Source: Perna viridis
Taxonomy: Eukaryota
Direction of reading: 5' to 3'
DNA: 64,000 bases
NCBI GenBank assembly: GCA_037379345.1
Contig: CM074511.1
Coordinates: 21,018,001 to 21,082,000, forward strand
How positions within the stretch are numbered: position 1 is the stretch's first letter; each line of letters opens with the position of its first letter. Shown in pieces: positions 54,601 to 60,000 of the stretch. Position numbers: made by a program.

Positions 54601-57022
54601 AATGGTCTCCTTTATCATTTATTACATTTCAACAGTATATATGCATTTATTTTGATTACTTTTAATCGAAAGTCATTTTAATTTGTATAGCCTTGCCTTT
54701 CAAACATAATCTACTTTTGTTATTATAGAAAATATAAAAATATCAAACTTTTCATGGTTAAGATTTAATTCGATAACAGAAAGTAGCAAATAGTTTTAAT
54801 TTTAGAAAGGACAGTCTAAAATAATAATGTTTTATTGGTCTAGATTTTTACAAAATAATATTGCTCTACAAAAGAACATTAAAAATTGCTTTTTGTACGA
54901 CATTGACTGGTGTGTCTTATCTTTCAAGCAATAGTGGGAAAAAAGAGGAACTTGTTCTTGGGAATTATAATTTCTTTGCGTTACCCAAACTATCTCATAA
55001 GTCGAATTATCTGATTTATTATTCCATATTTACATGAACCATTTGAGTTAAACAATTCAAGAATTTCCTCTTTCGTCTACCCTGGACTTGACTTTTTATG
55101 AGCAACTCGGCGGGTGTTTCTAGAAAAGCAGAGGACGCTTACTTTACCTGGTCCATGCTCCCAGTTTTTAGTGGAGTTGCTCGTTTGCTTTTGTTACTTT
55201 GTATGCATTATTTTAGTTACTTTATGCTCTTTGTTGTGTATGTCTGTTTTCCATGTCTGGTCTTTATCCCTGGATTACATTCTATTTGTTACCGCTAGAA
55301 CCTTGGTTCCCTTGATTACTCTTCCTTCAAAGTGTCAATATCACGTATAATCTATAAAGTTTTATCTCAAAAGTGCAACAACTTAATGAAAACTATAACT
55401 GATATGTGGTATGTAACAAACTGAGAAATAAGATGGGCAAATAACAACCTTTAATACTCAAAAAATCAGTCTGTCTGGTGCTTTTCATTATCTTTTGGTC
55501 TTTGGAAGTAAAATTCGTTACACTTTTGTCTTGTAATGGTTTTTAATTCAAGATGTTACTTTATTTATTACTATCATTGATTTATTTTCAGTATGGTTTT
55601 GGATGACAGTTGGTCTTGCATCACTCTTGGCTCTGGTATTGTTACTGATACTACTGTTATTCCTTATAAGATACTGTTTTTGGTTAGTAACAATTAAAAC
55701 AGTAAATATTTACTTTTATTTCTATGTTTCTTACCCAATGGTGGTTGTCGATTTTAATAAATTATCAAAATTAATTTGTGATTACAGGTACATAAACTTT
55801 ACTTTATGACTTTAATTTTGTAATTTGGTAAAAGACATTGCTTAACTTTTACGCTTAGAATCCCTAAAAAGAAGCCCAAATCTCACATATTTTCATTTCG
55901 TGTCTCGCTCCGAATACATTTATTACATATTCCGATACATCTGTAAATATTGTTGAGACCGTTTTGACCACCAGTATGTTTACACACATTATTATTCTTT
56001 ATCGATTCTACGGACGAAAATTAACAACCTCGTTGGCTTGTTAAAAAATTAGATATAAGAATTTGAAAAAGTAATGTTAAACATTGTTTTTTACGCGGGA
56101 AAATAACATATATCTGTTTGTTTACCCAATCAGCTGGTGGTGCGAGTAAATAATGCTACAATAAGGATAATCCTATCTAAGGAAATACTGTCTGTAGTTT
56201 TCCAAATCGAAAGGGAAATACTACTGGTTTTGCAAAGGTGAAAAATAAAGTAAAATTTTGACATTTGTTGGGATAAGTTTGGGAAAATGTAGTTCCGTGA
56301 TTTTGAAGGCACCCTGTGTAAATATGAAAATATATTGGGAAAAAATATTTTTAAAAAATGTAATAACATTGATTTTCCAACAAAAGGTTTACCTTCAGTA
56401 GAAAAGTTGAATCCGGTTAGATGTATTGTGAAATAGATTTTCAATCTTTTTTAGCCACAAACGAAAAAGCCGGGTTTCAGAATTTATAGAAAGTCAAGAC
56501 AGATATGGAGATTCTTGTGGACCTTGTTGTGGTTTCGTAGACTACAAGGGATGCTGTTCTCTCTTCGGTTGTTGTGGATTCTTTGGATGTTGTGGTGGTT
56601 TTTGTGGTTGTTGCCGATGTTGCCGAGAGTTTCCAGGGGACACTGGTCCGGAATCATCAAACCATAATAATGTCAACCAACAGGGCAATAAACCAAGGAA
56701 AAAGAAAGTGTCCGTCAGGCAAACACAGACTTCACCGACGCCTACAGATTCGTCATATATACACGACGAAAAGAAGAAAATAGCAAAGGTCCTTAATGCT
56801 TGGATGCCACATTCACATACTGTACGAAACATAAACACCAGCACAAAATGAATTATGACAAAGAACAAACCAGAACAGAACTATTGCCCTGAACAAGTTA
56901 TAGTTCGAAAAAATTAATGTTAAAGTTTTATAGTAGTATGAAAACTATTAGCATCTCAACTTTTTCTAAATTTGAATATGATATGTTTATTTATCGCACC
57001 GCAGTCCATTTTTTACAGGATG

Positions 57023-57053
<31 letters not shown>

Positions 57054-60000
57054 TTCAAAATAATATAACTTATCTTCTCCTTTCATGGTTATTGGGCATT
57101 CTTCTCTTTTTGCTTCTGGCAATCTTTTTTTTTATGTATTTCATCAAAGTGAATGTCGCATCAAGAAATTACAGGTTCTTTAGTGTTTCGATCGATTATT
57201 TTTTATAAAATTTACAAATCTTCAAAAAGAACTACTTACGAAAATGTTAATCATAGAAACTTCCTGCTTTACGATAGTCTATTGAAGCATGCAATATTCT
57301 TACTTCGCTTTTTGTGCAACTTTTTTCTGGTTTCGGTTTACACACTCGTGTTATTTAACGCACCCTAGCTAGTTCCTAATGTGGTGTATAGTCACACTGT
57401 CTATTTCATTCTCGTTTCAGATGGACGGGGTATATATTATTTCTAATAACATTGATTCTACACATATTGTAAAACAGAAACCGAAGAAAGTTCATACGTC
57501 TGCTACACAGACCTATCCCATGTCACGTGATTTAGAAAATTCATTTGTGACACAGGAAAAGGATAATAAGAAGAAAACCGCCAAAGTTTTAAAAGCTTGG
57601 ATGCCTCATACACACGATCTCCGAGCAATAAATACCAGCACGAAGTAAACAAATCGGATATAACTTTCATTTAAATAATTCCAAGAAAGATACGGTAGAC
57701 AAATTAGTGTGTTCCATGATATACGAACGTTCGAAGGTCTCATATTGTTAACTTATTCTGTTTATAAGCAACAACACACATTTATTTGAATATGACTAAC
57801 GTAGAAGTGTCGCTTATAGGTCCATGTGTTTTCTTTGTTTTAGACATGTGTATTTTGTTCTTTAACTGTTTTTTTTTTATTCATCATGTATTGCCATTTC
57901 TGCCCTCTTTTTTATTTTCGTATTAGATTATTTCTATTTTGATTATTTGCTATGTTTATTTCGTACTCATTCATAGCTACATTTTTGTAGTGAACTCTTA
58001 TTACTTGTTTATGGGTAAAGATTTGGTGCATTTAATCAGTATTATGACTTCTTCTAAATTTAATTTTGTATTGTTTTGTTTTAGCTGATATATTTTGGAG
58101 ACAACTTTTTTTTCTTTTCAATTATCACAATGTGTGCGAACAAAGCTTTTTTTCCTTTTAAAAACAGTAAGTGCTGTGTTAACTTCGTTTTATGACTAAA
58201 AAATAAAGTTTCTAAAATCTCTTTCTATGTTTTATGTATGATATTTCTGAATGTATAAAATCTAATATTTTACATGGACAAAAAAAAACGAAATTGAAAT
58301 CCTGTAATAAAGGTAAGATATCCTGTGTTTAAGCCTTATCTGAAAATATTATTATTTTGCATTAGGTGTACATACTAAGCGACGTCAATCGGTTTGTTTA
58401 AAGACGGAAAGAAAAAAAAACAGGATTAAACTTGGGTAAAAAATACTACGTGAAACAACCACTGAAACGCTGAAAAACGTAAAATCTTTCGGAATGTTGG
58501 CAAGGATTGCAGCCATGATAATAGTTTTCTCCTTTCTCGTTAAGTTCATATTATGTCTGCTGGTATAATGATTTATTGCAAGTGTTAAACCACACTGCAC
58601 CCATTTCTGTACATACTGCAATGATGCATACCTTATCGAGTCGTACATTGAAAAGGTAGAGGAAATTGTTACACAAGATAAACGTTTTTAATAAGAAGAA
58701 CAAATATTATTTATTGAATATTCATGAAGATGGTGTGTTTCTTAAATAATTCTGAGTCGTTTTAAGTTCAAATGGAGATACTTTTTGTCAAATTAATTTT
58801 TAGAGTTTTTCCTTAAAACTAACACTCTGTATGAATGAGGAAGAAATGCCTAAAATGCTTAAGTTAATCTGGACTATCTTGCTTAACCTAATCTGGACAA
58901 AAATGCTGTAATTTACCTGGACTAAAATGCTTAACTTAACACTAAAATGCTTAATTTCATCTGAACTCAATTTCCTTAACTTAACCTAGACAAAAGTGCT
59001 TAACCTAATCTGGACTGAAATACTGAATTTAACCTGAACTAAAATGCTTAACTTAACACTAAATTGCTTAACTTAACCTGGACTATAAAACTTTGACTTC
59101 TTCTATCAGTTTGATAGTACTTGTTCACATTAATCATTCTTAAATTAAGTTGGGCTTTTCTATCAACACATTAAAACGGAAAGCGATTCTTTTTAGTTAA
59201 TTCAAACATTTTTTTTTAATTTTCTTATTTTTTGCTTTTTTTTTTATTTGTTTAAATGCTTGTTTAGCATTATCATTATTTATTTTTGTTTTAACCATAG
59301 AACGGCATCAATATCCAAGTTTTGCATTTTTTATCTAAATTTAAACAACCCTCAAGAGAAATTTTCACAACTTTTAATCAAGATCAATCTGTCAGGTCAC
59401 AAGTTCAACTTCATACATTATACATTATAGCAAATAATACTTATTAGCTTTAAAAAAGCATGATAAATCCCTAGTAATTTGTAAATGTTTAACTAGATCT
59501 TTTAGCGTTTATATTGTATGTTCTTATATAATCCACAAGTTTACTCTAACTGTACAGTATTGTACGAAGTGAACTTGAAAAGAAGATCGCCAATATTTTG
59601 TATATACACTTAAAATGATATAGAATGCATTTAAAAATCTTGACCTAGTAAGTTACTATTTATTTAAACAAAAAGTATTTAGTATGCAAACACGCTAATT
59701 AAAATATCTTCACTTCTTACCTTCGTTAGAGGTTAAGTTTAAGTTAAGCCTTTATAAGAAATACATTGCTCCGAATGGCTTAATTAGTCCAAAGAACGCA
59801 GCTATCTATGTTTATGTGACGGCGTTGTTGGACACTTCTTCCTCGTAAAATAATACAAAAACATTTCGACTTGTTAGCACGATAATGAAAAAATGAATAC
59901 AATTTGGTAAAGGTTTTATTGACCTTTTGTGTTTTCTTCTGTTTCAATATCTTTATTTGCAGATGTATTATCAATTTGTTTTCTTTATAGTTTTGGTAGT

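What the first reader, a model, noticed from the sequence alone, without database searches (positions are those of the whole stretch)
56455..57648. Two paralogous terminal exons in tandem after one TM exon
SEEN: T1 (phase 2) joins the TM exon directly. T2 lies 570 bp further on, has a strong phase-0 acceptor and resembles the 3' half of T1 (KKV..xxTQT.P...KKxAKVLxAWMPH), but lacks the Cys/Gly block. It needs a phase-0 donor. Candidates are weak internal GT sites in T1 or the bridging exon 57019-57148. A phase-2 acceptor at 57368 runs straight into TAG. INFERENCE: either alternative last exons that toggle the Cys-rich block, or the relic of another paralog.
Basis: partly seen in the sequence, partly recalled or inferred. 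Interest (0 to 1): 0.65.

Follow-up and report, generated by a model that had tools for sequence, protein, structure and literature searches.

The report
Duplicated tail exon, spliced in series
A mussel-type membrane-protein gene carries a second, old copy of its tail-coding exon just downstream, and related Mytilus gene models splice it on from a site inside the first tail exon, which is ordinary alternative splicing after exon duplication.

Summary
T1 (56455-56851) follows the TM exon (55592-55682) in phase 2. T2 (57421-57648) lies 569 nt after the T1 stop, has a good phase-0 acceptor, and is homologous to the half of T1 after the Cys block (tblastn E 1.6e-13).

It is the best of 28 GTs in T1.

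Two RefSeq models carry the same junction, KKKIAK|M..VYIISN: M. trossulus LOC134728063 X2 and M. californianus LOC127707718 X1.

Splicing therefore keeps the Cys-rich block. It swaps the last 20 residues for 75 residues that end in the same WMPHxHxxRxINTSTK motif, a net insert of 55 residues.

Both tails are under purifying selection. Over the last 26 codons pS is 0.70 and pN is 0.15, and four of four T2 sequences share a T2-specific head. A decaying relic is therefore unlikely.

No transcript data exist for this window, so use of T2 here is inferred by homology.

The gene belongs to an uncharacterised Sushi-TM-Cys-rich family that has six tail copies in the window.

In passing: three intact Met-initiated Sushi first exons precede a single TM/T1/T2 set. 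This may be a variable-first-exon locus.

Interest is modest.

The parts
27101..27293 (+). Sushi first exon 'a' (ATG at 27101; phase-1 donor AATG|GTATGT, GT at 27294)
   Evidence: Pfam Sushi E 1.2e-9. ATG and donor. 78% identical (50/64) to the N-terminus of P0002.
36243..36435 (+). Sushi first exon 'b' (ATG at 36243; phase-1 donor AATG|GTCAGT, GT at 36436)
   Evidence: Pfam Sushi E 3.6e-9.
44856..45048 (+). Sushi first exon 'c' (ATG at 44856; phase-1 donor AATG|GTGAGA, GT at 45049)
   Evidence: Pfam Sushi E 7e-12.
55592..55682 (+). Transmembrane exon (phase 1 in, phase 2 out). It is the only TM exon between 16.7 kb and the end of the window.
   Evidence: Sequence. Family HMM E 2.1e-7. nhmmer with a TM-exon profile finds 4 TM exons in the window, this one at E 1.4e-11.
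56455..56851 (+). T1: long cytoplasmic exon with its own stop (TGA 56849-51). It holds a basic juxtamembrane stretch, the Cys/Gly block, a Lys-rich stretch and the tail motif.
   Evidence: 75% identical (88/118) to P0001 and 62% (83/133) to P0002.
56516..56623 (+). Cys/Gly-rich block inside T1 (residues 21-56 of the exon). It lies upstream of the internal donor, so it is kept in both forms.
   Evidence: Translation. The block is conserved in P0001-P0008 and P0014. Internal 21-nt repeat.
56789..57420 (+). Optional intron of 632 nt. It runs from the internal phase-0 donor AAG|GTCCTT (GT at 56789-90) to the T2 acceptor (AG at 57419-20). It contains the last 20 codons and the stop of T1.
   Evidence: The donor scores 6 of 9 consensus positions, the best of 28 GTs in T1, 7 of which are phase 0. 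The homologous junction KKKIAK|M is seen in P0001 and P0003.
56789..56851 (+). Private tail of the T1 form (VLNAWMPHSHTVRNINTSTK plus stop)
   Evidence: The tail profile hits here at E 2.4e-19.
57421..57648 (+). T2: short phase-0 tail exon of 75 codons plus TAA. It has a head (MDGVYIISNN..), a variable middle and the tail motif.
   Evidence: 50% identical (39/78) to residues 208-283 of P0001 and 53% (41/77) to P0009. The tail profile hits here at E 1.3e-18.
57019..57148 (+). It is an open frame with phase 2 in and phase 0 out, and it contains (TTA)9.7 at 57025-57053. Not supported.
   Evidence: donor AAA|GTGAAT, 7 of 9. There is no counterpart in P0001 or P0003.
57149..57188 (+). Intronic stretch complementary to the donor region 56780-56820. 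Possibly a donor-masking stem; weak evidence.
   Evidence: (I1).
58202..58311 (+). First canonical poly(A) hexamers after T2 (AATAAA at 58202 and 58306)
   Evidence: There is no AATAAA or ATTAAA between the T1 stop and T2.

Best explanation
T1 and T2 belong to one gene. It encodes a single-pass membrane protein of a mussel-type family with this layout: an N-terminal Sushi domain, a TM helix, a Cys-rich juxtamembrane block, a Lys-rich stretch and a C-terminal WMPHxHxxRxINTSTK motif.

T2 is an old tandem copy of the half of T1 that follows the Cys block.

T1 contains an optional intron, 56789-57420. It begins at a Lys-Val codon pair (AAG|GTC) and ends at the T2 acceptor.
- If it is left in, translation stops in T1.
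- If it is removed, the last 20 residues of T1 are replaced by the 75 residues of T2, which end in the same motif.

The two proteins therefore share the ectodomain, the TM helix, the Cys block and the C-terminal motif. They differ by a 55-residue insert with a conserved VYIISN head, which changes the spacing and content between the membrane-proximal part and the terminal motif.

Shown: the anatomy, the phases, the homology and the selection on both tails. Inferred: that this organism makes both forms; that both share a poly(A) site after T2; and what the insert does.
For: 1. The in-frame junction exists. The donor is phase 0 at 56789 and the acceptor is phase 0 at 57421.
2. This donor is the best of 28 GTs in T1 (6 of 9 consensus positions). 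The constitutive donors I scored at their correct positions in the cluster score 6-7 of 9.
3. Two independently annotated RefSeq proteins carry this junction..KKKIAK|M(N/G)DVYIISN..: M. trossulus LOC134728063 isoform X2 (P0001, 283 aa) and M. californianus LOC127707718 isoform X1 (P0003, 282 aa). Both keep the Cys block (alignments).
4. A T1-only form exists in a relative. P0002 (228 aa) ends in the T1-type tail and spans the Sushi, TM and T1 parts in one ORF.
5. Both tails are constrained. Over the last 26 codons, T1 against T2 gives pS 0.70 and pN 0.15. Over all 61 aligned codons, pS is 0.82 and pN is 0.33.
6. The T2-specific head VYIISN is identical in 4 of 4 T2 sequences: the window, P0001, P0003 and P0009.
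7. There is no AATAAA or ATTAAA in the 569 nt between the T1 stop and T2. AATAAA occurs at 58202 and 58306.
Against: No transcript of this window was available, so the junction here rests on homology.

The two supporting proteins are computed gene models.

Those proteins are only 75% or less (T1) and 50% (T2) identical to the window. They may be paralogs, or orthologs from a different mytilid.

I did not find the sister isoforms (M. trossulus X1, M. californianus X2). So no call shows that one gene makes both forms. P0002 comes from an unnamed source.

The donor mismatches the consensus at +3 to +5.

The poly(A) argument is weak. From base composition I estimate about 1.7 canonical hexamers expected by chance in 569 nt, against 0 observed. 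This is my own arithmetic, not a tool result.
Confidence: 0.65

Rival explanations
1. T2 is an unused relic in this genome. It is either the last exon of a lost neighbouring paralog or a dead duplicate, and it sits in the 3' UTR or downstream of a gene that always ends in T1.
For: The cluster holds other short phase-0 tail exons (c1 640-801, c2 10128-10283, c3 14715-14876) whose upstream partners I could not find. T2 evolves faster than T1: 50% against 75% identity to P0001. No transcript data were available.
Against: The reading frame is open for 91 codons in DNA that is 67% A+T. The terminal motif is kept although synonymous sites are saturated. The acceptor and the head are conserved in 4 of 4 T2 sequences. 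Two gene models include T2. The T1-T2 spacer shows no similarity to the other genes' introns.
Confidence: 0.12
2. T1-to-T2 splicing is constitutive. The T1 private tail is never translated, and the gene has one product, the long form.
For: The only named models I found are the long form (P0001, P0003). In M. californianus it is called isoform X1.
Against: The 20 codons after the donor still match the family motif (W, MPH, R, INTSTK are invariant in alignment A1), with pN 0.15 at pS 0.70 against T2. An intron should not keep this. P0002 and P0011 end in T1-type tails.
Confidence: 0.1
3. T2 is reached without T1, giving a form that lacks the Cys block. The route would be TM exon (phase 2) to the bridging exon 57019-57148 (phase 2 in, phase 0 out) to T2.
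For: The phases fit. The acceptor ttttttacAG|G and the donor AAA|GTGAAT (7 of 9) look good, and the frame is open across 130 nt.
Against: The exon is a (TTA)9.7 microsatellite followed by T-rich low-complexity sequence, where open frames are cheap. It would add a poly-Tyr run and a second hydrophobic segment, which would put the conserved tail on the wrong side of the membrane. It has no counterpart in P0001 or P0003 and no family-HMM hit on the + strand. A direct TM-to-T2 join reads TG+A, a stop.
Confidence: 0.05
4. T2 is translated on its own, from its first-codon ATG, as a small soluble protein of 75 residues. It would carry the family's C-terminal motif and could act as a free competitor of the membrane-bound tails.
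For: The first codon of T2 is ATG in the window and in P0001, P0003 and P0009. P0009 is a stand-alone ORF of 73 residues.
Against: ORF callers need an ATG, so P0009 is biased evidence. The ATG directly follows a strong acceptor. No promoter evidence was found. The context cagATGG lacks a purine at -3.
Confidence: 0.04

Closest known systems
RefSeq models: 'uncharacterized protein LOC134728063 isoform X2' (Mytilus trossulus, P0001) and 'LOC127707718 isoform X1' (Mytilus californianus, P0003)
   Same: They have the same architecture: Met-x-Cys Sushi domain, TM helix, Cys/Gly block, KKKVSVRQTQTSPTPTD, KKKIAK, then the T2-type segment ending in ..AWMPHSHDVRxINTSTK. The junction is at the same residue.
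   Different: T1 is 75% identical to P0001 and 68% identical to P0003 (%identity column; one search lists 53% for P0003), and T2 is 50% identical (to P0001), so this is not the same gene copy or not the same species. These are computed models with no published function. Neither LOC number occurs in the paper library (0 papers).
[quoted passage not shown] Source: PMC9013439, passages read. For PMC9741552 I saw only the search listing and the start of the abstract.
   Same: A terminal coding exon was duplicated in tandem, and the copy serves as an alternative 3' end. The isoforms differ in a homologous region.
   Different: The choice here is not mutually exclusive. The upstream copy is mostly retained, and the second copy is added from a donor inside it. 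The product therefore carries one and a half copies of the unit and ends in the same motif.
Alternative 5' splice site or 'exitron'-like optional intron inside a terminal coding exon (recalled, not from a call)
   Same: An intron that starts in coding sequence and spans the stop codon. Retention or removal decides the C-terminus, and neither choice leaves a junction downstream of the stop.
   Different: The downstream reading frame here is a paralog of the one removed, not unrelated 3' UTR sequence.
Variable-first-exon clusters such as clustered protocadherins and UGT1A (recalled). Drosophila hydra has nine homologous initial exons (PMC9013439).
   Same: This applies to the passing observation only. 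Three homologous Met-initiated ectodomain exons (27101, 36243, 44856), each with a phase-1 donor, lie upstream of one TM/cytoplasmic exon set.
   Different: I have no evidence that each exon has a promoter or is spliced to the common exons. No conserved upstream element was found.

Membership tests
Mussel Sushi-TM-Cys-rich-WMPH..NTSTK protein family (unnamed; defined here from P0001-P0014) | N-terminal Sushi/CCP domain starting right after the initiator Met | tested here: met
   Exons a, b and c pass the Pfam Sushi cut-off and start MSC, MSC and MTTC. 7 of the 8 longer database proteins with an N-terminal Sushi-type domain (P0001-P0004, P0007, P0008, P0010, P0014) start M-x(1-6)-C; P0004 is the exception.
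Mussel Sushi-TM-Cys-rich-WMPH..NTSTK protein family (unnamed; defined here from P0001-P0014) | TM helix beginning (V/F/A/G)W(F/L)W, followed by basic residues | tested here: met
   55592-55682 reads VWFWMTVGLASLL..RYCFC then HKRKSR. Family HMM E 2.1e-7.
Mussel Sushi-TM-Cys-rich-WMPH..NTSTK protein family (unnamed; defined here from P0001-P0014) | Cytoplasmic Cys-rich block ..DYxGCCSLxGCCG..CRCCRE | tested here: met
   T1 residues 21-58. phmmer finds 12 proteins at E<=1e-3 in 1.84 billion representatives, the best at 3.5e-59. No Pfam family covers the block.
Mussel Sushi-TM-Cys-rich-WMPH..NTSTK protein family (unnamed; defined here from P0001-P0014) | C-terminal W(M/L)PHxxxxRxxNTST(K/R) directly before the stop | tested here: met
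   Both T1 and T2 end this way. There are six copies in the window. The invariant columns are listed in alignment A1.
Tandem-duplicated alternative terminal exons | Two adjacent homologous terminal coding exons on one strand | tested here: met
   tblastn E 1.6e-13. blastn 82 nt at 73%, E 1.65e-13.
Tandem-duplicated alternative terminal exons | Splice signals and phases that let the second copy be used | tested here: met
   Phase-0 donor at 56789 (6 of 9) and phase-0 acceptor at 57419-20 (16 of 20 pyrimidines).
Tandem-duplicated alternative terminal exons | Transcripts of one gene ending in either copy | not testable with these tools
   No transcript data exist for the window. Long-form models (P0001, P0003) and a short form (P0002) exist, but in different or unnamed sources.
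Mutually exclusive exons | Exactly one of the homologous exons is included in each mRNA | tested here: not met
   P0001 and P0003 contain most of T1 (including the KKKVSVRQTQT unit) and also T2.
Variable-first-exon cluster (protocadherin/UGT1A type); passing observation | Several homologous first exons, each with its own start codon and donor, upstream of one shared set of constant exons | tested here: met
   Exons a, b and c. Only one TM exon and one T1/T2 set lie after 16.7 kb.
Variable-first-exon cluster (protocadherin/UGT1A type); passing observation | Each first exon has its own promoter and is spliced to the constant exons | not testable with these tools
   No transcripts. No shared upstream element appeared in 600 nt before each ATG.

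The most novel reading that the evidence does not exclude
The 27-58 kb part of the window is one combinatorial gene. Three old, individually conserved Sushi first exons (a, b, c) would each be spliced to a single TM exon and T1, and the cytoplasmic end would then be varied by the optional T1-internal intron to T2. This gives up to six surface proteins from one locus. It would be a protocadherin/UGT1A-style variable-ectodomain arrangement in a bivalve. The tail choice might be set by an intronic stretch (57149-57188) that can pair across the internal donor.
Probability: 0.25. Interest if true: 0.55.

Novelty: new member of a known kind. Interest (0 to 1): 0.3.

Why it matters
The finding settles the gene model. 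T2 should be annotated as a coding alternative 3' exon reached from a donor inside T1. It should not be annotated as a pseudo-exon or as a Cys-less variant.

It also gives a clean example of a duplicated terminal exon used in series, so that both isoforms keep the same C-terminal motif but differ in spacing. That pattern points to the terminal WMPH..INTSTK motif as the functional end of the protein, probably a binding or sorting signal.

The family is uncharacterised and appears restricted in range: 12 representatives at E<=1e-3 among 1.84 billion. The wider biological weight is therefore modest unless the variable-first-exon reading holds.

Tried and rejected
- Looking up the source names and sister isoforms of P0001, P0002, P0003 and P0009 with the listing of cluster members: the tool answered that the shared database is switched off. 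I did not pursue this by another route.
- ESM Atlas with T1: no usable hit.
- Pfam on T1, T2 and seven family proteins at E<=1: only Sushi passes a cut-off, in 4 of the 7 proteins (P0002, P0003, P0008, P0010). T1 and T2 match 0 families.
- Rfam on the whole window: 0 matches.
- Literature: 'Mytilus' + 'sushi domain' + 'alternative splicing' gave 2 papers, neither on this family judging from the listing. The two LOC numbers gave 0 papers.
- Bridging exon 57019-57148: rejected as a microsatellite or low-complexity frame with no homolog.
- A degenerate Cys block or paralogous intron sequence between T1 and T2: none. blastn and tblastx of 56852-57420 against seven other intervals of the cluster gave nothing better than E 0.013. 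T1/T2 DNA similarity is confined to the last 82 nt.
- An inverted tail relic at 57076-57190 (minus strand): tblastn E 0.45-2.9. The tail DNA profile does not find it at E<=10. Rejected as a relic.
- The stem from the donor region (56780-56820) to 57140-57190: it is the best of 1375 sampled windows at -28.3 kcal/mol (next unrelated -24.4; mean -12.2, sd 3.9). However, it is one of 17 inverted pairs of similar quality, and the fold of 56740-57230 is unremarkable (z -1.2; 12 of 100 shuffles fold as well). Kept only as a lead.
- Middle exons that would link the phase-2 TM donors of genes 1 and 2 to their phase-0 short tails: not found.
- A conserved element upstream of the six Sushi ATGs: none.
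Full report
**What the window is**

The window is 64 kb of DNA at about 32% G+C with no N. Its + strand carries a tandem cluster of small genes of one family.

- A Pfam scan covered 150 of the 151 + strand stop-to-stop frames of 55 aa or more; the first, 15-179, was dropped to fit the limit. It found Sushi domains in six frames: 7285-7527, 12129-12401, 15251-15466, 27053-27457, 36222-36440 and 44838-45059.
- tblastn with the T1 and T2 frames found six copies of a C-terminal motif, WMPHxHxxRxINTSTK followed by a stop. All are on the + strand, with stops at 801, 10283, 14876, 16651, 56851 (T1) and 57648 (T2).
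- A DNA profile of the six tails finds those six copies again and nothing else below E 2.9. A profile of the TM exons finds four, at 8187, 12827, 15669 and 55593.
- The best database relatives are Mytilus proteins. I take the source to be a mytilid mussel or a close relative and did not try to identify it further.

**Checking the observation**

- The TM exon is 55592-55682. Its acceptor AG is at 55590-91 and its donor is G|GTTAGT with GT at 55683. It ends with two bases of a codon.
- T1 begins at 56455 after tcttttttAG. The join reads ..RYCFC|HKRKSRVSEF.., as in the database proteins.
- T1 runs to TGA at 56849-51. It holds the Cys/Gly block at 56516-56623.
- T2 begins at 57421 after ctcgtttcAG (16 of 20 pyrimidines), 569 nt after the T1 stop. 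It runs for 75 codons to TAA at 57646-48.
- T1 and T2 are homologous from about ..SNHNN/ISNN.. to the stop (tblastn E 1.6e-13, 53% over 58 residues; local alignment).
- At the DNA level only the last 82 nt still align (73%), and the similarity ends at the stop codon.
- The AG at 57367-68 does run into TAG at 57370-72.

**How T2 is reached**

I did not build or search a joined T1+T2 or TM+T1 model, so that step is left out.

- T2 alone, searched against longer proteins, gave 2 hits among 17 candidates. They are P0001 (M. trossulus LOC134728063 isoform X2, 283 aa) and P0002 (228 aa, no name).
- T1 alone, searched against 1.84 billion representatives, gave 12 proteins at E<=1e-3, 4 at <=1e-10 and 1 at <=1e-30.
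- T1 against longer proteins gave 2 of 34 candidates: P0001 and P0003 (M. californianus LOC127707718 isoform X1, 282 aa).
- T1 against proteins of similar length gave 1 of 2 candidates: P0002.

P0001 and P0003 read Sushi, TM, Cys block..KKKVSVRQTQTSPTPTD..(E/D)EKKKIAK, and then directly M(N/G)DVYIISN.. through to ..AWMPHSHDVRxINTSTK.

- The part up to KKKIAK aligns with T1 (75%, 88 of 118).
- The rest aligns with all of T2 (50%, 39 of 78).

In the window, KKKIAK ends at 56788 and the next codon is GTC (Val). AAG|GTCCTT is therefore a phase-0 donor, and it meets the phase-0 acceptor of T2 in frame.

By a crude count of matches to MAG|GTRAGT, this site scores 6 of 9. That is the highest of the 28 GT dinucleotides in T1, of which 7 are phase 0. 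The constitutive donors I scored at their correct positions in the cluster score 6-7 of 9. One reference row in that call, 'TM g3', was entered one base off and should be ignored.

The optional intron is 56789-57420, 632 nt.

**What splicing does to the protein**

The Cys-rich block lies upstream of the donor and stays in both forms.

- Unspliced, the protein ends VLNAWMPHSHTVRNINTSTK.
- Spliced, those 20 residues are replaced by 75 residues: a head MDGVYIISNNIDST, a variable Ser/Thr/Lys-rich middle, and ..KKKTAKVLKAWMPHTHDLRAINTSTK.

Both forms end in the same motif. The net change is a 55-residue insert between the Lys-rich stretch and the terminal motif. This is serial use of a duplicated unit. 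It is neither a toggle nor a mutually exclusive choice.

**Is T2 alive?**

Over the last 26 codons of T1 and T2, synonymous differences are near saturation (pS 0.70) while pN is 0.15. Over all 61 aligned codons, pS is 0.82 and pN is 0.33 (Nei-Gojobori counts).

The duplication is therefore old, recent gene conversion is unlikely, and both tails have been kept by selection. This also argues that the T1 private tail is translated, meaning the intron is sometimes retained. An always-removed intron should not preserve it.

The head of T2 has no counterpart in T1. Yet VYIISN is identical in 4 of 4 T2 sequences: the window, P0001, P0003 and the stand-alone ORF P0009 (P0009 is 53% identical to T2). 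The middle of T2 is free to vary.

P0002 and the fragment P0011 end in T1-type tails. P0002 spans the Sushi, TM and T1 parts in one ORF. Given the introns seen here, that implies it comes from a spliced transcript. This is an inference.

**The 3' end**

Between the T1 stop and T2 there is no AATAAA or ATTAAA, only AATATA at 57062 and TATAAA at 57204. After T2, AATAAA occurs at 58202 and 58306, and ATTAAA at 58425.

I therefore favour one terminal exon with an optional intron and a shared poly(A) site over two exons each with its own site. The evidence is weak. From base composition I estimate about 1.7 canonical hexamers expected by chance in 569 nt; this is my arithmetic, not a tool result.

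The bridging exon 57019-57148 has phase 2 in and phase 0 out, a good acceptor and a 7-of-9 donor, so on paper TM-bridge-T2 is in frame. There are four points against it:

- It consists of a (TTA)9.7 microsatellite (57025-57053) followed by T-rich sequence.
- It would encode poly-Tyr and a second hydrophobic segment.
- It has no family-HMM hit on the + strand.
- It is absent from both long-form models.

A direct TM-to-T2 join reads TG+A, a stop.

**Family context**

Only the Sushi domain is known to Pfam. T1 and T2 match no family even at E<=1, and the ESM Atlas gave no usable hit.

Gene 3 (15254-15449 | 15668-15762 | 16207-16651) has the same three-exon plan and the same phases as the T1 form.

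The other three tails resemble T2. c1, c2 and c3 are short exons whose best acceptors are phase 0. The TM exons of genes 1 and 2 end in phase 2. Either a middle exon is missing from my models or those genes are decaying. I could not resolve this.

**Comparison with what is known**

Tandem exon duplication as a source of alternative isoforms is well documented, including duplicated terminal exons (Drosophila pip) and initial exons (hydra). Competing RNA structures can set the choice of 3' variable regions (PMC9013439, passages read). For PMC9741552 I saw only the search listing and the start of the abstract.

The present case is a member of that kind, with one difference: the second copy is appended from a donor inside the first. 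The junction is already present in two RefSeq models, but I found no paper on the family.

**What stayed unchecked**

- There are no transcripts for this window.
- No eukaryotic genome collection was on hand, so the Mytilus loci could not be read.
- The prokaryotic genome collection was not used, because it cannot bear on this question.

**Verdict**

The best explanation is an optional intron inside T1 that appends the duplicated tail exon T2 (confidence 0.65). The finding is ordinary in kind and useful for annotation, and its interest is modest.

Noticed in passing
window 27101-27293, 36243-36435, 44856-45048 (+), with 55592-55682 and T1/T2: Three Sushi exons each start with ATG and end in a phase-1 donor (AATG|GT). 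They are 51-57% identical to each other, with saturated synonymous sites and pN 0.26-0.33. Only one TM exon and one T1/T2 set follow within 28 kb. They may be alternative first exons of one gene, or orphaned exons of lost paralogs.
   Followed up: partly
window 640-801, 10128-10283, 14715-14876 (+): Three more tail exons (c1, c2, c3) are short, with phase-0 best acceptors like T2. The TM exons of genes 1 and 2 (8185-8281, 12826-12922) end in phase 2. So a middle exon is unidentified, or these genes are decaying. c3 ends only 375 nt before the ATG of gene 3.
   Followed up: partly
window 7300, 12174, 15254, 27101, 36243, 44856; P0001-P0014: All six Sushi exons, and 7 of the 8 longer database relatives with an N-terminal Sushi-type domain, start with Met one to six residues before the first Sushi cysteine. 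None has a signal peptide. This suggests a signal-anchor (N-out) membrane protein with a disulphide-bonded N-terminal domain.
   Followed up: no
window 56780-56820 and 57140-57190 (+): An intronic stretch is complementary to the region around the internal donor. The duplex energy is -28.3 kcal/mol, the best of 1375 sampled windows, but the regional fold z-score is only -1.2. It could mask the donor.
   Followed up: partly
window 22137-23476 (+), 29429-30359 (+), 53263-54111 (-), and repeats near 7708, 22796, 32909, 41512, 41873, 52954, 55092: There are reverse-transcriptase-like open frames and a recurring ORF-like repeat (..FSGVRVAHLLLLLCMY..) on both strands. These are presumably transposon remains that fill the long introns. 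They had no Pfam hit at E<=0.01.
   Followed up: no
window 6401-6736 (+): Overlapping open frames carry an internally repeated Gly/Trp-rich unit (..GMGYPWHASCWGCQALVVEWGTPGMLHAGVVRPWWW..), also seen near 30469-30840 on the minus strand. Probably a repeat element.
   Followed up: no
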